NCBI GenBank assembly: GCA_009845995.1
Contig: VXYK01000004.1
Coordinates: forward strand, 9,705 to 73,704
Length of the DNA stretch: 64,000 bases
Source of the DNA: Acidimicrobiaceae bacterium
GTDB lineage: Bacteria > Actinomycetota > Acidimicrobiia > Acidimicrobiales > Aldehydirespiratoraceae
Direction: 5' to 3'
The notes under the pieces are model-generated. The model did no database searches, was not told the origin of the DNA, and worked only from the letters and a program-made list of their open reading frames with translations. Position 1 is the stretch's first letter, and each line of letters begins with the position of its first letter. The position numbers were made by a program, and so were the translations under genes. Shown here piece after piece: positions 8,198-25,275 of the stretch.

Positions 8198-9706
8198 GTG
8201 AACAAGACCCGGACGCTGTCGGTTCTCGCCGGTCTGCTCATCGCAGCCGGACTCCCGCCCTGGGGATGGTGGCCGCTCACTATCGCGGGACTGGCGCTCT
8301 GGTTCCATGTTCTCAACCAGTTGACCCCGCACACCCGGTTCGGACGTTCGCTGCTTGTCGGTGTCGCCTGGTTCTTCCCGAGCACAGTGTGGATGGCGGA
8401 CCTGACTCCGGTGGGCTGGCCCGTCGCCGCGGCCGCTTTCAGTGTGATGGTCGCCCTGGTCGGATGGATCACACCCAGTGACCGCGTATACAGGGGTGCG
8501 GTTTTCTGCGGCGCTCTCGCGTTGGCCGAATTGATCCGCTGGAACTGGCCTTTCGGCGGAGTTCCCATTTCCACGCTGCCAATGGCAGGCGTCAACACTC
8601 CTCTCGCCTCGTCAGTTCGACTCCTGGGGTCCCCCATCCTCGTCGTGTTGTTGGCGCTCGCGGCCGTGATTCTCGCCGACCTCGTCACACGCCGAAGAGC
8701 CAGTCTGGCTGCCGTGGGAATACTCGCGGCGCTGCCGCTCGCCGGATTGCTTCCGTGGGTCGCCACGACTGAGGGCGACACCGTCCGAGTCGCAGTCGTG
8801 CAGGGCGGCGGACCTCAGAACACGAGAGCCGACCTGTGCCAGAACCGACAAGTGTTCGAACGGCACATGGAGGCGAGCCAACTCATCAGCGAACCGGTGG
8901 ATCTGGTGCTTTGGCCCGAAGACGTGGTGCATCCGGCTGCCGACGGCGCCACTTCAGACCGTTGCCCGGACCCGCTGTTGGGTCGCAGCGAAGCGACAGA
9001 CCGGATCGCCCGACTGGCCGACAGGCTAGATGCCGTGGTCGTCACCGGATGGTTCGAACCGAGTGCGGACGGCGACTCCAACCTGAACTATTCGCTCGTC
9101 ACCGATTCGAGCGGAGTCACGGGCGATCGTTACGACAAGGTGCAGTTGGTGCCTTTCGGCGAGTTCGTACCGCTTCGCGGCTTCATTGAGCGATTCAGCA
9201 GCGAACTCCCGGCACGCGACGCGCGGGAGGGAACCGAACCCGCCGTGGTCGACAGCGAACTTGGACCGCTCGGCGTCTCGATCTCGTGGGAGGTGTTCTT
9301 CGACCACCGAGCCCGAGACGCGATCGGCAACGGCGGGTTGGTTCTGCTGAATCCCACGAACGGCTCGAGCTACTGGCTCACGATCGTGCAGAGCCAGCAG
9401 ATCGCGTCGAGCCAGCTGCGGGCAATCGAGACGGACCGCTGGGTGCTGCAGGCTGCGCCAACCGGATTCTCCGCCATCATCGACCCGTCGGGCGAGGTCA
9501 TTTCCCGCACCGGAGTCAGCGAACAACAGCGGCTGATCGAAACCATCAATCTCCGCGAGGGACGCACCCCCGCGGTCGTGCTCGGGGCCTGGCCGGTGCT
9601 CATCGCGTCACTGGGGATCGTGGCGTTCGCCCACCTGGATTCCCTCACTCAAGAGATCGCCAGGCGCTCCCGGGCCCGCAAACGAGCCCGCGCGCAGAAC
9701 CGTTGA
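8198..9706 (+). CDS. lnt: Apolipoprotein N-acyltransferase
   Basis: N-terminal TM helices; LWPED, YDKVQLVPFGEFVP, ISWE, RAIETDRW..QAAPTGFS nitrilase-fold motifs. Confidence 0.92.
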   Translation: MNKTRTLSVLAGLLIAAGLPPWGWWPLTIAGLALWFHVLNQLTPHTRFGRSLLVGVAWFFPSTVWMADLTPVGWPVAAAAFSVMVALVGWITPSDRVYRGAVFCGALALAELIRWNWPFGGVPISTLPMAGVNTPLASSVRLLGSPILVVLLALAAVILADLVTRRRASLAAVGILAALPLAGLLPWVATTEGDTVRVAVVQGGGPQNTRADLCQNRQVFERHMEASQLISEPVDLVLWPEDVVHPAADGATSDRCPDPLLGRSEATDRIARLADRLDAVVVTGWFEPSADGDSNLNYSLVTDSSGVTGDRYDKVQLVPFGEFVPLRGFIERFSSELPARDAREGTEPAVVDSELGPLGVSISWEVFFDHRARDAIGNGGLVLLNPTNGSSYWLTIVQSQQIASSQLRAIETDRWVLQAAPTGFSAIIDPSGEVISRTGVSEQQRLIETINLREGRTPAVVLGAWPVLIASLGIVAFAHLDSLTQEIARRSRARKRARAQNR

Positions 9707-9809: not shown

Positions 9810-11084
9810 ATGCACAAGGCGCAGAACCCCCATGATCGCGCCCTCCGCATTGCACTGCTGACCTATCGCGGCAAGCCCCATGTGGGAGGACAAGGGGTCT
9901 ATGTCCGACATTTGAGCAAAGCACTCGTCGACCTCGGGCATCACGTCGAGGTTCTTGGCGGTCCCCCCTATCCAATCCTCGACGAACGTGTGCCGCTCAT
10001 CAAGCTGCCGAGCCTTGACATCTGGTCAGAACCGCACCCCATGCGCAAACCGCGGGTCTGGGAATGGAAGGACTGGACCGACGTCGCCGAGCACGCCTCG
10101 TTCGGCACCGGCAACTTCTCTGAACCCATGGCTTTCAGCCTTCGAGCATGGCGCCATCTGCGCCATCGCCGCCACGAATTCGACCTGATCCACGACAACC
10201 AGACACTGGGCTGGGGCCTGCTCAAACTGCACCAGGAAGGCTGGCCGATCCTCGAAACGATCCACCACCCGATCACGGTCGACCGCAAACTCGAACTCGA
10301 GCACGCCCGCACAGCATGGGAACGATTCGGCAAACGACGCTGGTACTCCTTCACCAAGATGCAGCGTCGAGTCGCCCGACGAATGCCTCGACTGATGACC
10401 GTCTCCGAGTCCTCAAAGAGCGATATCAGCGCCGATTACGGAATCGATCCCGACCGACTTCATGTGGTGCCCGTGGGAGTCGACCCGGACCTGTTCCTGC
10501 CGGTCAGCGGGGTGGAACGCCGCGAAGGCCACTTGGTCACCACCGCATCAGCCGACGTGGCCATGAAGGGACTCAAGTTCCTCCTCGAAGCGGTGGCCAA
10601 GCTGCGCACCGAGCGCCACATCGAACTGACCATCATCGGAAAACGACGACCCGACAGCCATGCCAGCACCGTGATGACCCGCCTGGGCCTTGATGACTGC
10701 GTAGAGTTCGTCTCCGATGTGGCTGACACGCGCATCGTCGAGCTTTACAGCGAAGCGGAGTTGGCCATCGTGCCCTCCCTCTATGAGGGCTTCTCTCTAC
10801 CCGCCATCGAAGCGATGTCGTGCGGAGTTCCACTCGTTGCCACGACCGGAGGAGCACTCCCCGAAGTCGCCGGCACCCACAACGAAACCTGTTTCCTGAC
10901 CGAGCCGGGCAACAGCGAAGCTCTGGCGTCAACCATTCGCGAGGCCCTCGACAACCCCGAACTGCGAGCACAGGTGGGGAGTCAAGGGCGGCAACGAGTC
11001 ATCGACCAGTGGTCCTGGCGCCACACCGCGCAGCGCACCGTCGACCAATACCGGTCAGTGCTCGCGGAACAGGGCACTGTCTGA
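9810..11084 (+). CDS. Glycosyltransferase family 4 (ManT-like candidate mannosyltransferase)
   Basis: GGQGVYVRHLS, HDNQTLG, PSLYEGFSLPAIEAMSCG, GGALPEV. Confidence 0.9.
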   Translation: MHKAQNPHDRALRIALLTYRGKPHVGGQGVYVRHLSKALVDLGHHVEVLGGPPYPILDERVPLIKLPSLDIWSEPHPMRKPRVWEWKDWTDVAEHASFGTGNFSEPMAFSLRAWRHLRHRRHEFDLIHDNQTLGWGLLKLHQEGWPILETIHHPITVDRKLELEHARTAWERFGKRRWYSFTKMQRRVARRMPRLMTVSESSKSDISADYGIDPDRLHVVPVGVDPDLFLPVSGVERREGHLVTTASADVAMKGLKFLLEAVAKLRTERHIELTIIGKRRPDSHASTVMTRLGLDDCVEFVSDVADTRIVELYSEAELAIVPSLYEGFSLPAIEAMSCGVPLVATTGGALPEVAGTHNETCFLTEPGNSEALASTIREALDNPELRAQVGSQGRQRVIDQWSWRHTAQRTVDQYRSVLAEQGTV

Positions 11085-11905
11085 TGCTCACCGTCGACTA
11101 CGACCGATTCGGCCTGCGCGCCGAAGACCGGCTGCTCGACCTCGGCTGTGGTTTCGGCCGTCACACCTATGAAGCACTGGTTCGCGGCGCAGACGTCGTC
11201 AGTTGCGACATGTCTCTGGCGGAACTCGAGTCCATCGGAAACACCGCGCCGCTGCTGATAGACGATGGGCTGTTCGACGCCGAACTCAGCCACACCTTGG
11301 TGCAGGGTGACGGAACCGCTCTGCCTTTCGCTGACGACAGTTTCGACAAGGTCATCGCTTCTGAAGTGCTCGAACACGTGGTCGACGACGATGCCGCCTT
11401 CAGCGAACTCCTCCGGGTTCTCAAACCTGGCGGGGTTTTGGCGGTCACGGTCCCGGCCTGGCTGCCGGAGAAGATCTGCTGGAAGATCAGCTCCGACTAT
11501 CACGCTCCCGCCGCTGTCGGCGGTCATGTTCGGATTTACACCGAGAAAGAAGTTCGCCAGAAATTGCGTGCTGCAGGCTTCAACCCTACGGTCTCTCACC
11601 GCACTCACGCCTTGCACTCCCCGTACTGGTGGCTTCGCTGTGCGGTCGGTGTCAACAACGAGATCGAGGACAATTTTTCTGTGCGGATCTACCACAAGCT
11701 GCTCGAATGGGACATCGTCAAGGCGCCTTGGTTGACGCGCACCGCCGAGAGGATCCTCAACCCGGTACTCGGCAAGAGTCTGGTGGTCTACGCCGACGTT
11801 CCGGTAAACGCGGAGGTCTCCGACACTGCCGAGACACCAGCGGCCGGCGAAGAACTGCTCGTACATCATTCGTCTCCTACCCCAGAGGTTGTTCGTGCTA
11901 CCTGA
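11084..11905 (+). CDS. Class I SAM methyltransferase (MeT1-like candidate)
   Basis: ATG overlaps the GT stop (TGATG); MLTVDYDR.., LLDLGCGFGRH, SEVLEH, GGHVRIY, HALHSPYWWLRC, GKSLVVY. Confidence 0.9.
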   Translation: MLTVDYDRFGLRAEDRLLDLGCGFGRHTYEALVRGADVVSCDMSLAELESIGNTAPLLIDDGLFDAELSHTLVQGDGTALPFADDSFDKVIASEVLEHVVDDDAAFSELLRVLKPGGVLAVTVPAWLPEKICWKISSDYHAPAAVGGHVRIYTEKEVRQKLRAAGFNPTVSHRTHALHSPYWWLRCAVGVNNEIEDNFSVRIYHKLLEWDIVKAPWLTRTAERILNPVLGKSLVVYADVPVNAEVSDTAETPAAGEELLVHHSSPTPEVVRAT

Positions 11906-12980
11906 GATTCGCGGCGTTCTGTCCGCTGACGAGATCCGACAAACCGCCGACCACATCGCCGAGTGGCAGCTCGGCTCGGGAATGATCCCTTGGTTCCCAG
12001 GCGGCCATGCCGACCCATGGAACCACGTCGAAGCGGCAATGGCCCTTGTTGTGGGTGGTCGCCGAAGCGAAGCCGAGGCCGCCTACCAATGGCTGGTCGA
12101 CAGCCAGCGGCCCGACGGTTCCTGGCATCAGTACTATCTGGAGCACGAGGTTGAGCAGGACAAGCTCGACGCCAATGTCATCGCCTACGTTGCCACCGGG
12201 GTTTGGCATCACTATCTGCACTTCCGTGACCTCGGCTACCTGGAGACGATGTGGTCCGTCGTCGAAGATGCCATCGATTTTGTTCTCGACCTCCAGCAGC
12301 CGCGCGGCGAGATTCTCTGGGCACGCCACCCCGACGGGACACCATGGCCCTTCGCGTTGTTGACCGGCTCGTCCTCGATCGCCCACAGCCTTCGCTGTGC
12401 GGTCGCCATCGCCGAGGAACTCCGCCACGAACGCCCCGACTGGGAGCTGTCGGTGGCCCAGTTGGCCCATGCGATCCGCCACGAACGCGACAATGCGTTC
12501 TCGCCCAAACACCGCTGGGCCATGGACTGGTACTACCCGGTGCTTTCCGGGGTGATCAGCGGCGAGGCAGGGAGAGCTCACCTCGCTGAGAGGTTCAACA
12601 CTTTCAATCTCGGCGACGAAGGCATCCGTTGTGTCAGCGATCGCCCTTGGGTCACGACCGCGGAGACCTGCGAGTGCGCCATCGCCCACCTCGGCGTCGG
12701 CGACTATGCCACGGCCATTCGCCTTTTCAGCGCCGCGCAGAAGCTTCGAGAACCGGACGGTCGCTACATCACCGGCATGGTTCATTCCGAACTCACCATG
12801 TTCCCGCCCGGTGAGCGCTCCACCTACTCTGCGGCCGCCGTGTTGCTGGCCGCGGAGGCGATCGAAGGTTCGAGCCCCGCGTCGAAACTGTTCGCCGATC
12901 ACGAATTCCTGTCACCGATCATCGACATCGATCCGGTGGACTCCGGCGTAACCAACCCGACCCGACCTGACCGGGGTTAA
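11889..12980 (+). CDS. Prenyltransferase/squalene-oxidase-repeat-like (alpha/alpha)-barrel protein (MmpH-like candidate glycoside hydrolase)
   Basis: GMIPWFPGGHADPWNHVEAAMAL, QRPDGSW, LLTGSSS, AMDWYYPVL, GIRCVSDRPWVTTAETCE; overlaps the upstream MT gene. Confidence 0.8.
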   Translation: MFVLPEIRGVLSADEIRQTADHIAEWQLGSGMIPWFPGGHADPWNHVEAAMALVVGGRRSEAEAAYQWLVDSQRPDGSWHQYYLEHEVEQDKLDANVIAYVATGVWHHYLHFRDLGYLETMWSVVEDAIDFVLDLQQPRGEILWARHPDGTPWPFALLTGSSSIAHSLRCAVAIAEELRHERPDWELSVAQLAHAIRHERDNAFSPKHRWAMDWYYPVLSGVISGEAGRAHLAERFNTFNLGDEGIRCVSDRPWVTTAETCECAIAHLGVGDYATAIRLFSAAQKLREPDGRYITGMVHSELTMFPPGERSTYSAAAVLLAAEAIEGSSPASKLFADHEFLSPIIDIDPVDSGVTNPTRPDRG

Positions 12981-13603
12981 TCGGGTCTCGTTCGGTGCAT
13001 CACACGCAGCGAGCCAGTGGCACTGGACTCCTCGAAGGTGCCTGAATCCATCGCTCGGCAGTAGATATCGTATGGAGGTCGACCGCCGTCAGCCGGATTC
13101 GGGAACACGTCGTGGATCAGCAGCGTGCCGCCGACAACAACGTGGGGCACCCAGGTCTCATAGTCGCGGTGTGCTGGTTCGTGACCGTGTCCGCCGTCGA
13201 TGAAGAGCAGCGCGAGGGGGGTGGTCCACACCGACCCGACCGTTGGTGAGTCTCCCACCAGCGCCACCACCGTCGGTTCCAGGCCGGAATCATGGATTGT
13301 GCGGCGGAAGGTTCCGAGGGTGTCGATCTTGTTGGTCTCGGGGTCTACCAGGTCCGGGTCATGGTGCTCCCAACCCGCCTGGTTCTCCTCAGACCCGCGG
13401 TGGTGGTCCAGAGCAAACAGGACACGACCGCGCTCGCTCGCTGCCGCACCGAGGTAGACCGCTGATTTGCCGCAGTAGCTGCCGACTTCAAGGAACGGTC
13501 CGTCCGCGGCAACCGCCATGGCAGCCTCGTAGAGGGCCATGCCCTCGTCGGGGGGCATGAAACCGCGCGCAGCCAGCGCGTGCTCAAGCAGTTCCGGGTC
13601 CAC
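12977..13603 (-). CDS. Class I SAM methyltransferase, Methyltransf_24 type (candidate sugar O-methyltransferase)
   Basis: GFMPPDEG, LEVGSYCGKS, DHHRGSEE, LFIDGGH, IHDVFP..DGG; convergent stop overlap with the previous gene. Confidence 0.9.
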   Translation of the reverse strand: MDPELLEHALAARGFMPPDEGMALYEAAMAVAADGPFLEVGSYCGKSAVYLGAAASERGRVLFALDHHRGSEENQAGWEHHDPDLVDPETNKIDTLGTFRRTIHDSGLEPTVVALVGDSPTVGSVWTTPLALLFIDGGHGHEPAHRDYETWVPHVVVGGTLLIHDVFPNPADGGRPPYDIYCRAMDSGTFEESSATGSLRVMHRTRPD

Positions 13604-14062
13604 TCAAAGGACCTCGACGACTGACTCGTCGCCGGCTTTGGGCCACAACAGACCATCCAGCACCAGGTATTTCGCCACCCAGACCACACCGTAAGCGACC
13701 ACTGTGCTCAGCATCAGAACAGGTGTGTTGTCGGTGATCATCCCGAGCAGTGCGATGGTCCCAGTTGAAAGGGTGAGACCCACGAAAGCGATAATCCAGA
13801 ACGGCAGGATCTCGGATTTCACGCTGTTGGCGCCCAGTTGCTGCCATACCCAGTAACGGCTCAGCAGATATGCGGGACCCGTGCTGACCATCCAAGCGGT
13901 CAGGTTGGCGATCGCCGGAGTCAGATCCAGCGCTTCGAGGGCATAAGCGAGGGTGCTGAGCCCCACCACCACGTTGACCGCCGAAACTGCGCAATAGCGA
14001 AGCGCCTTGCGCCAATGCTCGCGCACAGCTTCTGCGATCACCGCTTGGTTGATGACGGGCAT
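13604..14062 (-). CDS. GtrA-family small membrane protein
   Basis: Four TM segments; LRYCAVS, AYLLSRYWVW, KYLVLD pattern; start approximate. Confidence 0.78.
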   Translation of the reverse strand: MPVINQAVIAEAVREHWRKALRYCAVSAVNVVVGLSTLAYALEALDLTPAIANLTAWMVSTGPAYLLSRYWVWQQLGANSVKSEILPFWIIAFVGLTLSTGTIALLGMITDNTPVLMLSTVVAYGVVWVAKYLVLDGLLWPKAGDESVVEVL

Positions 14063-14136
14063 GGCTTTGCAGGATACTCGCATCGATTCGATCGCGTTCG
14101 CGCCGATATCTGTCGATATCCGAGCAAGATAGGGAC

Positions 14137-15012
14137 ATGCAGGATGACGTTGATGCACTTGTGCAGCTTCTTGATCTCGAAGTAATCGAGGTCAATGTCT
14201 TTCGCGGGGTGTCGCCAGACGAGAACCGCCAGCGAATCTTCGGCGGTCAGGTCGCCGGGCAAGCGCTGGTCGCGGCGGCTCGTACGGTTGAGCCTGATCG
14301 TGTCGTCCACTCGCTGCACGCATATTTTCTACGCCCTGGCGACCCGACCGTGCCGGTGCTGTACGAAGTCGATCGGATACGCGACGGCAGAAGCTTCACC
14401 ACTCGACGGGTGGTGGCCATTCAGCACGGTCGAGCCATCTTCAACTTGCAGGCTTCGTTTCAGATCGTTGAACCAGGTCTGGAGTTCGCAAGTCCCATGC
14501 CCGACGTGGTGCCTGCCGATTCCCTGCCCACACGAGCGGAGCGTTACCAAGCCCAGGGCATACCGGACCCGTTCGCCGGTGTCGGCCGCCCTGTCGACAT
14601 TCGCTATGTCACCGCCAGTCCCTTCCATCGCAACGAACCTCTTCCACCGGTGCAACAGGTCTGGTTTCGAGCTGATGGCCGCCTGCCCGACGATCAGGTG
14701 CTCCATACCTGTCTGTTGACATACGCGTCCGACATGACCCTGCTCGACACGACCCTGCTTCCTCACGGAACCAACTCCGAAGTCGGCGACATACAACTGG
14801 CGAGCCTTGATCACGCCATGTGGTTCCACGGAGAGTTCCGAGCAGACGAATGGCTGCTGTACGACCAGTACACGCCGGCGTCAAATGGAGCGAGGGGGCT
14901 CGCCATTGGGCGAGTGTTCACCCATGACGGCCGTTTGATCGCCAACGTTGTGCAGGAAGGGCTTATCCGCCAGATATCTCGCCAGAGAACAACCAAGCGC
15001 TCAAGCAGCTAG
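14137..15012 (+). CDS. tesB: Acyl-CoA thioesterase II
   Basis: IFGGQVAGQAL, HSLHAYFLRPG, RDGRSFTTRRV, YASD, ASLDHAMWFH, VQEG. Confidence 0.96.
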   Translation: MQDDVDALVQLLDLEVIEVNVFRGVSPDENRQRIFGGQVAGQALVAAARTVEPDRVVHSLHAYFLRPGDPTVPVLYEVDRIRDGRSFTTRRVVAIQHGRAIFNLQASFQIVEPGLEFASPMPDVVPADSLPTRAERYQAQGIPDPFAGVGRPVDIRYVTASPFHRNEPLPPVQQVWFRADGRLPDDQVLHTCLLTYASDMTLLDTTLLPHGTNSEVGDIQLASLDHAMWFHGEFRADEWLLYDQYTPASNGARGLAIGRVFTHDGRLIANVVQEGLIRQISRQRTTKRSSS

Positions 15013-22233: not shown

Positions 22234-22303
22234 GTTATCAGCAAGGCGTTGTCAGCAAGGTGTTGTCAGTACGGCGTTGTCAGCAAGGTGTTGTCAGTAC
22301 GGC
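22234..22303. repeat. Tandem repeat, 5 x 14 bp (GTTGTCAGYAMGGY-like)
   Basis: gttatcagcaaggc / gttgtcagcaaggt / gttgtcagtacggc / gttgtcagcaaggt / gttgtcagtacggc; the last unit holds the stop codon of the minus-strand methyltransferase. Confidence 0.92.
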
Positions 22304-23043
22304 CAATCACGAGTTCTGTGGCCAAGCAACCGGGTCAGGGGATACAACTTCAGCGTCAAGGCACCCTTGATGAGGACGTTGCGTGCAAACCATCCGAGCT
22401 GAAGTGCCTGGCGCAGTGCGTTCACTGTGGACTCCCGCCCCGACATCGGCTCACGCCGGTACTCGGCCAACGACCCGGAGCGACCCTGATAGCGCCAGGG
22501 GCTGCCCACGAAGGTCGACGTCAACAGGGCCAGCGTCACGCCGATTGAACTGAACGAATCATGGATCAGCATGGTGCCGCCGTCGGCTACTTGATCGCCC
22601 CAAGCGACGATGTCCTGGCGCGCCGGTCCGAAGCGGTGTGCGCCGTCGATGTAGAGAAGGTCGATGTCTCCGTCGACGTCACCCAGCGCATCGCCGGACG
22701 TCTTGCGAATGTGGGTCACGCGGTCGGCTACGCCGGCACGGGTGAGGTTGTCGGTGTAGCTGTAGTAGTCGCTGTCTCCGAGATATTGATTCGGAGCGAT
22801 TTCCTGTGGCCCGCGATCACCCCCGGCATGGGGATCAATGGACACGATCCCAACTCCAACAGGCGCAGCACTGGCGAGAACGATCAACGACCGACCACGA
22901 AAACTGCCTATTTCGACGAGCTGAGCGTCTTCTCGCAGCTCAGAGGCCCGGTCATAGAGCCGCCTGGCTTGATCGTCGGTCAACCAGCCTTCGACGTCCG
23001 CGATTTGGTCTAGCACTTCACCGAAGGTCTTACGGACAAACAC
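22294..23043 (-). CDS. Class I SAM methyltransferase, Methyltransf_24 type
   Basis: VEGWLT, VEIGSFRGRS, IDPHAG, LYIDGAH, IHD; start (GTG ~23043) approximate. Confidence 0.88.
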   Translation of the reverse strand: MFVRKTFGEVLDQIADVEGWLTDDQARRLYDRASELREDAQLVEIGSFRGRSLIVLASAAPVGVGIVSIDPHAGGDRGPQEIAPNQYLGDSDYYSYTDNLTRAGVADRVTHIRKTSGDALGDVDGDIDLLYIDGAHRFGPARQDIVAWGDQVADGGTMLIHDSFSSIGVTLALLTSTFVGSPWRYQGRSGSLAEYRREPMSGRESTVNALRQALQLGWFARNVLIKGALTLKLYPLTRLLGHRTRDWPY

Positions 23044-23118
23044 CACGAACGAGCCTACCGGCCTCCTCGCGGCGCTGGCCGCAGCCCACCAGCGGCAGCG
23101 GCCGATACTGTTAGTGGC

Positions 23119-25275
23119 ATGACGGCAATACCCGCCGGCCGACGTGGTGCCGCCCACCGGGCGCGTGGTACCGCCCACCGGGCGCGCATCGGGGCCGACG
23201 TCGGGGGGACGTTCACCGATATTGTCGTCCAAACCGTCGACGGGACACTTCACTCAACCAAAGTCCTGACCACTTACGATGCCCCTGAGCAGGGGATTCT
23301 GGCAGGAATCGAGCAACTCGGCCGGTCCACGGGCATAGATCTTCGCGATGTCGATCAGATCATCCACGGAACGACGTTGGCCACCAACGCCCTGATCGAA
23401 CGACGCGGGGCCAAGACCGCTCTGGTCACCACAGCAGGGTTCCGCGACGTGATCGAGACCCGCACCGAAAGCCGATTCGAGCAGTACGACCTCAACATCG
23501 TGCTGCCGGAACCTCTCATTGAGCGCAAGGATCGATACGTCATCACCGAACGACTCAACGCCCGCGGCGAAGTGCTTGTCGATTTCGATGAATCCGGGGC
23601 GAGGTCTCTCATCGAGCATCTCGGCGCGCAGGGATACGAATCTGTGGCAGTCGGCTTCTTGCACAGCTACCGAAACGGCGTCCACGAACGGCGATTTCGG
23701 AGCCTGTTGAAAGAGGTTCTCAGCGATGTCTCGGTCTCGATCAGCAGCGAAGTCTCCCCGCAGATGCGCGAATATGAACGCTTCAACACAGTTTGCGCAA
23801 ACGCATACGTGCAACCGCTGATGGCTTCATATCTGCTGCGGTTGAGAGACCAACTGGGCGCTATCGGTGTCGGCTGTCCGTTGTATCTGATCCATTCCGG
23901 CGGTGGCCTCATGAGCGTCGACAGCGCGGCCGAGTTTCCGGTGCGGCTGATCGAGTCGGGACCCGCGGGCGGCGCTATCTTCGCCGCTGATCTTGCCGCC
24001 CGTTACGGACGCGACCGGGTCCTCTCCTACGACATGGGTGGAACAACCGCCAAAATCTCCCTGATAGAGGACTTCACTCCCCGCACCGCGAAGGTATTCG
24101 AGGTCGACCGTCGGTCTCGATTCAAAAAGGGCAGCGGGATGCCCATCTCCATCCCGGTCATCGAAATGATCGAAATCGGCGCGGGAGGCGGTTCAATTGC
24201 TCGGGTCGACTCCCTTGGACAGATCCGTGTCGGTCCACACAGCTCTGGCAGCGAACCCGGGCCGGCCGCCTACGCTCGCGGTGGTTCCGACCCCACAGTC
24301 ACAGACGCCAATCTCGCGCTCGGTCGCCTGCACCCCGACACTTTCGGGGCGGCCGACATCGACCTGAAACCAACGCTGGCTCACCAGGCCATCTCCGATG
24401 CCGTTGGCGGTCCGCTGGGCCTTGACGCCGACACAGCCGCGATCGGGATCTCCGAGGTGGTCGACGAGAACATGACGAACGCCGCTCGTGTCCACGCGGT
24501 GGAGGGAGGCCGTGACCTCGCCGGATTCACGATGATCGCATTCGGCGGCGCAGCGCCACTCCATGCTTCTCGACTGATCGACAAACTGGGCCTCGACGAA
24601 CTGATCGTTCCGAGCGGAGCTGGAGTCGGCTCGGCGATTGGATTCCTCCGCGCGCCCTTCGCCTACGAGGCGATTCGCAGCTTCTACACAACCACCGACG
24701 ATTTCGACTACGTCGGGGCCAACGAAGTCCTTGCCGAGTTGACAGCCGAGGCCGAGTCGTTTGTGCGAATCGGTACTGCGACCGATCTGTCTGACGAATC
24801 AGAAACCATTGTCGAGCGCCAGGTGTCGATGCGGTATGCGGGGCAGGGCTGGGAGATCCCGGTGCGTCTCGACGACGGTGAATTCGACGAGTTTGCCGCC
24901 GATCTGTTGGCCGGCAAGTTCACCAAGGCCTACCTCGAGTTCTTCGGACGAGCCATCGAGGATTTGACGATCGAAGCGGTCAGCTGGGCAGTGCGGGTGT
25001 CGTCGCGCCAAGAGCCGCCGCCACTGGTCGAGACAATCCCGCAGGGATCGCCGGTCACGTCTGAGACACTGCGTGAGATGTACGACCCCGCACTCGACAC
25101 GCGGGTCACCGCGGGCGTGTTTGAACGCGCACAACTCAACCCGGGCGATCTTGTGATCGGCCCGGCCCTGATCGTCGAGACGCAGACCACCACCGTGCTC
25201 GGCTCTCATCACCGGTGCGTGGTCCAACCCGATGAGTCACTGCGCATCAGCCGAGCCGGACGAGGCTCGCCATGA
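23119..25275 (+). CDS. Hydantoinase/oxoprolinase subunit A family
   Basis: IGADVGGTFTD, HGTTLATNALIER, ESGPAGG, DMGGTTAK, IGAGGGSIA, GGAAPLHA. Confidence 0.95.
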   Translation: MTAIPAGRRGAAHRARGTAHRARIGADVGGTFTDIVVQTVDGTLHSTKVLTTYDAPEQGILAGIEQLGRSTGIDLRDVDQIIHGTTLATNALIERRGAKTALVTTAGFRDVIETRTESRFEQYDLNIVLPEPLIERKDRYVITERLNARGEVLVDFDESGARSLIEHLGAQGYESVAVGFLHSYRNGVHERRFRSLLKEVLSDVSVSISSEVSPQMREYERFNTVCANAYVQPLMASYLLRLRDQLGAIGVGCPLYLIHSGGGLMSVDSAAEFPVRLIESGPAGGAIFAADLAARYGRDRVLSYDMGGTTAKISLIEDFTPRTAKVFEVDRRSRFKKGSGMPISIPVIEMIEIGAGGGSIARVDSLGQIRVGPHSSGSEPGPAAYARGGSDPTVTDANLALGRLHPDTFGAADIDLKPTLAHQAISDAVGGPLGLDADTAAIGISEVVDENMTNAARVHAVEGGRDLAGFTMIAFGGAAPLHASRLIDKLGLDELIVPSGAGVGSAIGFLRAPFAYEAIRSFYTTTDDFDYVGANEVLAELTAEAESFVRIGTATDLSDESETIVERQVSMRYAGQGWEIPVRLDDGEFDEFAADLLAGKFTKAYLEFFGRAIEDLTIEAVSWAVRVSSRQEPPPLVETIPQGSPVTSETLREMYDPALDTRVTAGVFERAQLNPGDLVIGPALIVETQTTTVLGSHHRCVVQPDESLRISRAGRGSP
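23143..23184 (+). repeat. In-frame 21-bp tandem duplication at the N-terminus (RGAAHRA/RGTAHRA)
   Basis: cgtggtgccgcccaccgggcg / cgtggtaccgcccaccgggcg. Confidence 0.85.

What the first reader, a model, noticed from the sequence alone, without database searches (positions are those of the whole stretch)
9810..15012. Putative methylmannose-polysaccharide (MMP)-type biosynthetic cluster, linked to GtrA and TesB, in an apparent Acidimicrobiia genome
Seen: three translationally coupled genes (GT4, class I MT starting MLTVDYDR, an (alpha/alpha)-barrel protein) converge on a Methyltransf_24 gene that directly follows a GtrA-like gene; divergent tesB overlaps the same promoter region. Established: the mycobacterial MMP locus encodes ManT (GT4 mannosyltransferase), MeT1 (1-O-methyltransferase), MmpH (hydrolase) and a second, putative 3-O-methyltransferase, and MMPs bind long-chain acyl-CoAs. 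Inference (from recalled architecture, not an alignment): this is the orthologous four-gene set in a lineage where I know of no MMP report. The GtrA-like membrane protein and acyl-CoA thioesterase may indicate a variant, such as a lipid-linked or exported methylglycan, or coupling to acyl-CoA turnover.
Basis: partly seen in the sequence, partly recalled or inferred. Interest (0 to 1): 0.72.

Follow-up and report, generated by a model that had tools for sequence, protein, structure and literature searches.

The report
Methylmannose sugar-polymer genes in Acidimicrobiales
This uncultured actinobacterium carries intact, same-order counterparts of the four genes that mycobacteria use to build and recycle a small internal methylated mannose chain, so it likely makes that fat-binding polymer too; the neighbouring membrane-protein gene is probably an unrelated passenger, while the neighbouring fatty-acyl thioesterase may share the polymer's role in handling fatty acids.

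Summary
Observation confirmed. The four genes are orthologues of mycobacterial manT, pmeT3, mmpH and meT1. Best PDB hits are 7QSG (E 1.5e-121), 7QSJ (6.7e-102) and 6G7D (1.7e-68); reciprocal hits return to this locus, and order and orientation match. The Methyltransf_24 gene is MeT1; the MLTVDYDR gene is pMeT3. mmpH and meT1 occur together in 106 of 201 Acidimicrobiia genomes, including all 56 from this order, and the tree follows taxonomy. No FAS-I was found in 0/201, so the classical FAS-I role cannot apply here. The GtrA/export idea is not supported: gtrA is in 42 of 106 MMP genomes, next to meT1 in 21, and moves with tesB away from the cluster. The acyl-CoA link is partly supported: TesB is in 103/106 MMP genomes versus 11/95 others, which also carry fewer acyl-CoA dehydrogenases (not phylogenetically independent). 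MmpH has Asn for Asp50 in 120/120 Acidimicrobiia loci, pointing to Asp47 as the catalytic acid. No polymer has been shown. This scan has already noted MMP clusters many times on other DNA, including Acidimicrobiia. My paper searches found no report in print for this class. Verdict: new member of a known kind.

The parts
9810..11084 (+). manT orthologue, GT4 alpha-(1->4)-mannosyltransferase (424 aa)
   Evidence: PDB 7QSG E 1.5e-121, next hit 5.5e-21. His142, Lys240, Glu313, Glu321 and Asp293 equivalents are H152, K253, E326, E334 and D306.
11084..11905 (+). pmeT3 orthologue, putative 3-O-methyltransferase, class I SAM fold (273 aa)
   Evidence: Same position as in mycobacteria-like loci, 50-53% identity to those genes, reciprocal best hit. 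Model pLDDT 91; top fold hits include the sugar O-methyltransferases RebM and AtmM. No solved pMeT3 exists in the PDB copy.
11889..12980 (+). mmpH orthologue, (alpha/alpha)6 MMP endomannosidase (363 aa; start TTG 11889 or GTG 11895)
   Evidence: PDB 7QSJ E 6.7e-102. Asp47, Trp49, Asn101, Thr163, Met215, Tyr219, Glu262 and Glu265 are kept; Asp50->Asn45, Phe102->Val97, Trp315->Tyr313.
12977..13603 (-). meT1 orthologue, MMP 1-O-methyltransferase, Methyltransf_24 (208 aa), convergent on mmpH
   Evidence: PDB 6G7D/6G80/6H40 E 1.7e-68, the only hit. Convergent in all 123 examined loci that hold it.
13604..14062 (-). GtrA-family four-helix membrane protein (152 aa), co-directional with meT1; probably not part of the MMP pathway
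   Evidence: PF04138 E 3.2e-13. Model has four helices; best fold match is the DPMS transmembrane domain, E 3.9e-3. It is the only PF04138 gene found in G000. Distribution is uncoupled from MMP.
14137..15012 (+). TesB-type acyl-CoA thioesterase II (291 aa), divergent from gtrA; a separate gene block, but co-occurs with MMP genes at genome level
   Evidence: TIGR00189 279 bits, just under the 292.85 cut-off; Pfam Acyl_CoA_thio. Present in 103/106 MMP genomes versus 11/95 others.

Best explanation
The four genes at 9810-13603 are orthologues of mycobacterial manT, pmeT3, mmpH and meT1 in the same arrangement, and they likely make a cytoplasmic alpha-(1->4) 3-O-methylmannose polysaccharide (MMP) by the same self-recycling route. 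Inferred mechanism: MmpH cuts mature chains into primers, ManT extends them from GDP-mannose, pMeT3 would methylate O3, and MeT1 caps free reducing ends. With no FAS-I in the class, the polymer most likely buffers long-chain acyl-CoAs that come from fatty-acid uptake and degradation, alongside TesB. gtrA and tesB form a separate block that ancestral gene order placed next to meT1 in part of the order; GtrA probably serves the cell's ordinary polyprenyl-phosphate-sugar/GT-C glycosylation.
For: Shown: best PDB hits are the characterised M. hassiacum enzymes, by 95 or more orders of magnitude for ManT and MmpH, and the sole hit for MeT1. 20 of 20 proteins from five mycobacteria- or streptomycete-like loci hit these window genes best in G000. 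Arrangement is identical. Residues found essential by mutagenesis (ManT Lys240, Glu321; MmpH Glu262; PMC9883506) are kept. None of the four proteins has a hydrophobic segment above 1.6 on a 19-residue Kyte-Doolittle scan, consistent with cytoplasmic enzymes. mmpH and meT1 occur in the same 106 of 201 class genomes, and the three-gene tree groups 43 of 44 order rows (support 98) and keeps sampled families mostly together. A likely mannose-1-phosphate guanylyltransferase is in G000 (best family NF052502, 293 bits, under its 440 cut-off). FAS-I marker PF08354 is in 0/201, with the Corynebacterium control positive. TesB family: 103/106 versus 11/95. GtrA: 42/106 versus 11/95, adjacent to meT1 in 21 of 42; 1/23 in family f7, which is 23/23 for MmpH. 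gtrA(-GH1)-tesB lies away from the MMP genes in 5 loci from families f19/f20. G000 has 7 PMT_2-type GT-C genes over the cut-off and 10 GT2 matches, which are alternative clients for its single GtrA.
Against: No polymer, transcript or activity has been observed. pMeT3 activity is unproven even in mycobacteria. MmpH differs at three substrate-site residues (Asp50->Asn, Phe102->Val, Trp315->Tyr), so chain length or substituents may differ. gtrA abuts meT1 with no gap here and lies within 1.5 kb in 59 of 68 close-relative loci with room, so co-transcription is likely and a local role is not excluded. The TesB and beta-oxidation correlations run largely along families and orders and may reflect few independent events. 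Three MMP genomes lack TesB, and families f42 (5/5) and f31 (5/6) have TesB without MMP. In vivo acyl-CoA binding by MMP is itself unproven (PMC4555173).
Confidence: 0.8

Rival explanations
1. The same four enzymes make a related but different cytoplasmic polymer (other chain length, methylation pattern or sugar), reflected in the lineage-specific MmpH active-site changes.
For: Asp50->Asn in 120/120 Acidimicrobiia loci, Trp315->Tyr in 100/100 loci grouped as this order, and Phe102 replaced by V/C/T. Streptomyces griseus makes an acetylated MMP variant (PMC9883506).
Against: All other mapped catalytic and subsite residues are kept. Asp50Ala retains 29% activity in the source data, so Asp50 is not essential. 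No acyltransferase or other tailoring gene is conserved at the locus.
Confidence: 0.12
2. One reading: GtrA is part of the pathway, either flipping a lipid-linked methylmannoside for export or anchoring ManT/MeT1 at the membrane, as proposed for Rv3789 with AftA.
For: gtrA abuts meT1 in one likely transcript; within 1.5 kb in 59/68 close-relative loci. M. hassiacum ManT needs detergent and is membrane-associated. An anchor role is proposed for the GtrA protein Rv3789 (PMC7389260).
Against: GtrA is absent from 64 of 106 MMP genomes, present in 11 MMP-free ones, and unlinked in 21 of 42 (some are on different contigs). It is in 0 of 36 loci with room outside the order. It relocates with tesB. 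No GT2 or GT-C gene is conserved at the locus. The housekeeping gene lnt is equally conserved beside the cluster (43/50). A 1-O-methyl cap and an MmpH-primed cycle leave no obvious place for a lipid carrier (inference from PMC9883506).
Confidence: 0.06
3. The barrel protein is a prenyltransferase/cyclase and the cluster makes a glycosylated, methylated terpenoid.
For: Weak SQHop_cyclase_N match below cut-off; squalene-hopene cyclase E 7e-7 over about 45 residues.
Against: Full-length match to MmpH at E 6.7e-102 with the glycosidase carboxylates kept; NCBIfam's only hit is a GH15-type amylase.
Confidence: 0.01

Closest known systems
Mycobacterial MMP cluster manT-pmeT3-mmpH-meT1 (M. hassiacum MHAS_04402-04405, M. 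smegmatis MSMEG_6481-6484; PDB 7QSG, 7QSJ, 6G7D; PMC9883506)
   Same: All four genes, same order and convergent meT1, reciprocal best hits, essential catalytic residues kept.
   Different: Host is Acidimicrobiales, with no FAS-I found in 201 class genomes. MmpH has Asn for Asp50, Val for Phe102 and Tyr for Trp315. The neighbours are gtrA/tesB/lnt, not the TetR/P450 genes of the mycobacteria-like loci. The product has not been observed.
Streptomyces griseus acetylated MMP (AMMP; as cited in PMC9883506)
   Same: An MMP-type polymer outside mycobacteria, with a ManT homologue at 53% identity to M. hassiacum ManT.
   Different: No acetyltransferase is conserved at the Acidimicrobiales locus; streptomycete-like loci keep Asp50 and Trp315.
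Three-component glycosylation systems (GtrA/GtrB/Gtr*, GtcA, Rv3789; PMC7389260)
   Same: A four-helix GtrA/DPMS-type membrane protein; some paralogues of this subfamily do sit beside GT2 and PMT-type GT-C genes (L183, L184, L189, L190).
   Different: At this locus there is no GT2 or GT-C partner; the neighbours are soluble MMP enzymes and tesB.

Membership tests
MMP biosynthetic gene cluster | Four genes orthologous to ManT, pMeT3, MmpH and MeT1 | tested here: met
   PDB best hits; reciprocal best hits from 5 loci. pMeT3 rests on position and 50-53% identity to genes of unnamed mycobacteria-like loci; it was not compared with MHAS_04403 itself.
MMP biosynthetic gene cluster | Conserved arrangement manT>pmeT3>mmpH><meT1 | tested here: met
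MMP biosynthetic gene cluster | ManT residues His142, Lys240, Glu313, Glu321 | tested here: met
   H152, K253, E326, E334.
MMP biosynthetic gene cluster | MmpH catalytic base Glu262 and a catalytic acid (Asp47 or Asp50; left open in print) | tested here: met
   E259 and D42 (=Asp47) are kept in 120/120 Acidimicrobiia loci.
MMP biosynthetic gene cluster | MmpH subsite residues as in mycobacteria (Asp50, Phe102, Trp315) | tested here: inconclusive
   Replaced by Asn, Val and Tyr. Asp50Ala keeps 29% activity, so these may tune rather than define the enzyme.
MMP biosynthetic gene cluster | MeT1 active-site motifs | tested here: met
   Near-gapless match to 6G7D over residues 11-205; the D/H/E motifs checked are invariant in 115 homologues. 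The 2019 MeT1 paper was not held, so its residue roles were not checked.
MMP biosynthetic gene cluster | GDP-mannose supply in the genome | tested here: inconclusive
   Best family for G000:C29 gene is mannose-1-phosphate guanylyltransferase, 293 bits against a 440 cut-off.
MMP biosynthetic gene cluster | Production of alpha-(1->4) 3-O-methylmannose polymer | not testable with these tools
   Needs extraction and MS.
Three-component (GtrA/GtrB/GT-C) glycosylation system | GT2 polyprenyl-phosphate glycosyltransferase and GT-C encoded with the flippase | tested here: not met
   None in the locus or conserved in 140 related loci.
Squalene-hopene cyclase / prenyltransferase | Full-length cyclase match | tested here: not met
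   Only a short sub-cut-off match.

The most novel reading that the evidence does not exclude
MMP is not a mycobacterial FAS-I accessory but an ancient acyl-CoA chaperone of fatty-acid-degrading bacteria. It is near-core in Acidimicrobiales, which lack FAS-I, and works with TesB to keep long-chain acyl-CoA soluble and CoA available. The class-wide Asp50->Asn MmpH identifies Asp47 as the catalytic acid, and the Tyr-for-Trp315 form marks an order-specific variant of the polymer.
Probability: 0.3. Interest if true: 0.62.

Novelty: new member of a known kind. Interest (0 to 1): 0.34.

Why it matters
MMP has been isolated only from mycobacteria, plus an acetylated form from Streptomyces griseus, and its role in vivo is open (PMC9883506, PMC4555173). 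Finding the intact cluster in nearly every Acidimicrobiales genome sampled, with no FAS-I, separates the polymer from its textbook partner. It also offers non-pathogenic hosts and gene-content contrasts (TesB, beta-oxidation) for testing what MMP does. The natural Asp50->Asn change bears on which residue is the MmpH acid, a point left open in the 2023 paper. It is a range extension of a known system, not a new kind of system, and the GtrA link does not hold up as a new export variant.

Tried and rejected
Complex prediction MeT1 + GtrA: no answer, score 0.00; not used as evidence either way. Promoter/terminator scan: 0 promoter-like and 3 terminator-like sites, at chance level. A GATATC-N4-GATATC motif in the gtrA-tesB gap is not conserved in relatives; dropped. 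The 2019 PNAS MeT1 paper is not held, so nothing is taken from it except as cited in PMC9883506. An all-ORF clustering timed out and was replaced by a simple codon-based gene caller, which missed or merged a few genes (for example meT1 in L058, L068, L112, L116). The first tree run did not finish; FastTree was used instead (SH-like support only, midpoint root, no test of a clade). The GtrA fold search gave no hit at E<=0.001; the best three are DPMS. The cyclase reading and a six-gene functional cluster were considered and rejected as above. Paper searches: 'methylmannose'+'Acidimicrobiia' gave 0 papers; none of the 10 listed papers (of 231) contains '3-O-methylmannose'; some searches gave only mycobacterial MMP work or passing mentions.
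Full report
Observation. The six ORFs are as described and intact. manT and pmeT3 share TGATG, pmeT3 overlaps the mmpH start, mmpH and meT1 converge on a shared TTAA, and the gtrA stop abuts the meT1 start. gtrA most likely starts at ATG 14062, leaving a 74-bp divergent gap to tesB that is kept in the genus. The nearest named relatives are Ca. Aldehydirespiratoraceae and other Acidimicrobiales.

Identity of the four genes. P0001 hits PDB 7QSG at E 1.5e-121, next hit 5.5e-21; that this entry is M. hassiacum ManT rests on its residue numbers matching the paper's ManT residues with a constant offset, since the PDB label is generic. P0003 hits 7QSJ, named MmpH, at 6.7e-102; squalene-hopene cyclases reach only 7e-7 on a short stretch. 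P0004, the Methyltransf_24 gene, hits 6G7D/6G80/6H40 at 1.7e-68 as its only match; that these are MeT1 structures is recalled, and agrees with the gene's position. P0002 has no close solved relative. It sits where pmeT3 sits, is 50-53% identical to the genes at that position in seven unnamed loci (family f89) whose MmpH motifs match 7QSJ, and folds like class I sugar O-methyltransferases such as RebM and AtmM. 20 of 20 proteins from five such loci return to these window genes as best hit in G000. meT1 is convergent in all 123 of 140 loci that hold it.

Known pathway. From PMC9883506 (read: parts 1-6 of 11 of the text, plus term searches in four supplementary files; one scanned file could not be searched and may hold alignments bearing on distribution): MmpH cuts MMP into primers, ManT extends them from GDP-mannose, MeT1 caps free reducing ends, and pMeT3 is still putative. 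That survey covered 162 genomes of mycobacteria and related actinobacteria. Its searched supplements do not mention Acidimicrobiia, though the review file notes proteobacterial MmpH homologues. [quoted passage not shown]

Residues. ManT His142, Lys240, Glu313 and Glu321 are kept. MmpH Asp47, Trp49, Asn101, Met215, Tyr219, Glu262 and Glu265 are kept in all 120 Acidimicrobiia loci. Asp50 is Asn in all 120 and in 7 of 9 other non-mycobacterial, non-streptomycete-like loci; it is Asp in 9 of 9 scorable f89/f75 loci (2 more were cut by my gene caller). Trp315 is Tyr in 100 of 100 loci grouped as this order and Trp in the other 40. The 'order' group takes L031-L110 on similarity; three of them carry other labels (L093, L103, L104), and L104 falls inside the order clade in the tree. 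The paper left Asp47 versus Asp50 open, and its source data give 34% and 29% residual activity for the two alanine variants. Invariant Asp47 beside a class-wide Asn50 points to Asp47 as the acid; this is inference.

Distribution. MmpH is in 39 of 41 relatives (the two misses are same-order genomes, 97% and 70% complete). In 201 class genomes it matches 107, one of them a weak partial hit; the other 106 are exactly the genomes with MeT1, including all 56 from this order. Presence is all-or-none by family. In the phylum sample it is in 53 of 301; that tally includes two unpublished genomes, G237 and G281, and is 51 of 299 without them. A FastTree tree of ManT+pMeT3+MmpH from 84 of 141 available rows groups 43 of 44 order rows (support 98; the long branch L123 lies outside) and mostly keeps families together, which fits vertical inheritance.

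GtrA. It is a four-helix GtrA/DPMS-type protein and lies within 1.5 kb of meT1 in 59 of 68 close-relative loci with room, 4 of 14 more distant order loci, and 0 of 36 loci outside the order. The housekeeping gene lnt is as well kept on the other side (43 of 50), and tesB is at 40 of 50, so this is ordinary conserved gene order. Genome-wide the subfamily is in 42 of 106 MMP genomes and 11 of 95 others, and adjacent to meT1 in 21 of the 42 (contig breaks may hide some links). Family f7 has MmpH in 23/23 and this GtrA in 1/23. Of 20 copies fetched away from the cluster (46 of 117 nearby ORFs scanned), 5 from families f19/f20 sit with tesB, two of them also with a GH1 gene, and 4 sit beside GT2 genes, one also beside a PMT-type GT-C. 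So gtrA(-GH1)-tesB is its own block. G000 has one GtrA, seven PMT_2 genes over the cut-off and ten GT2 matches, which gives GtrA ordinary clients. PMC7389260 (passages only) describes the flippase and anchor roles proposed for this family.

TesB and fatty acids. Adjacency is limited to part of the order (0 of 33 loci with room outside it), but genome-level co-occurrence is strong: the TesB family is in 103 of 106 MMP genomes and 11 of 95 others (103 and 8 with the single protein). The control dtd shows no such link, at 66/106 versus 89/95. One control gene is few, kin are not independent, and f42 and f31 have TesB without MMP. The FAS-I marker PF08354 was not found in any of 201 genomes. G000 itself has 30 AMP-binding matches, one WS/DGAT and a type II KS. 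The most likely role is therefore buffering of acyl-CoAs in fatty-acid-degrading cells rather than FAS-I stimulation; this is inferred.

Novelty. My searches found no paper placing MMP genes in Acidimicrobiia (listings only, open-licence library). This scan's own notes hold 55 findings on MMP clusters in at least 54 genomes, several in Acidimicrobiia; these are unchecked leads, and the Acidimicrobiia claim was tested here independently. Verdict: a true MMP gene cluster, a new member of a known kind, with the export variant unsupported and an acyl-CoA link plausible but untested.

Noticed in passing
window 8198-9706 (+): lnt (apolipoprotein N-acyltransferase, over the TIGR00546 cut-off) directly upstream of manT; kept within 4 kb in 43 of 50 close-relative loci and used here as the synteny control.
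   Followed up: yes
L091:11521-12702 and 27 other order loci: A GH1 glycosidase gene lies between gtrA and tesB, co-directional with gtrA and meT1, in 28 loci, and moves with gtrA-tesB in family f19. It is absent from this window's locus. A GH1-GtrA pairing is unexplained.
   Followed up: partly
window 22294-23253 (-): A second Methyltransf_24-like gene, 29% identical to MeT1 (E 2e-9), about 9 kb downstream; function not examined.
   Followed up: no
G000:C44 (L196:1017-2366, -): Glucosyl-3-phosphoglycerate synthase over its NCBIfam cut-off (350 vs 262 bits), with about 150 extra N-terminal residues in the ORF as called; glucosylglycerate or MGLP-type metabolism may also exist here.
   Followed up: no
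G000:C20 (L198:1423-11118, +): A 3231-aa type I PKS with KS-AT-DH-MT-ER-KR and a second KS; from memory it resembles the Sup-type methyl-branched fatty acid synthases of sponge symbionts (recalled, not tested).
   Followed up: partly
L131-L150: In other Acidimicrobiia orders the MMP cluster sits among enoyl-CoA hydratase, methylmalonyl-CoA mutase, SDR, glpX and what look like ATP synthase genes, with no gtrA or tesB beside meT1.
   Followed up: partly
L115:10957-12213, L128:1011-2240: A roughly 420-aa PQQ glucose/sorbosone-dehydrogenase-like gene follows tesB in many order loci.
   Followed up: partly
L083, L093, L103, L104: Record titles (Ca. Microthrix, Acidobacteria, Bifidobacterium breve) disagree with their Acidimicrobiales-type gene order or tree position; probably mislabelled or misbinned records.
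   Followed up: no
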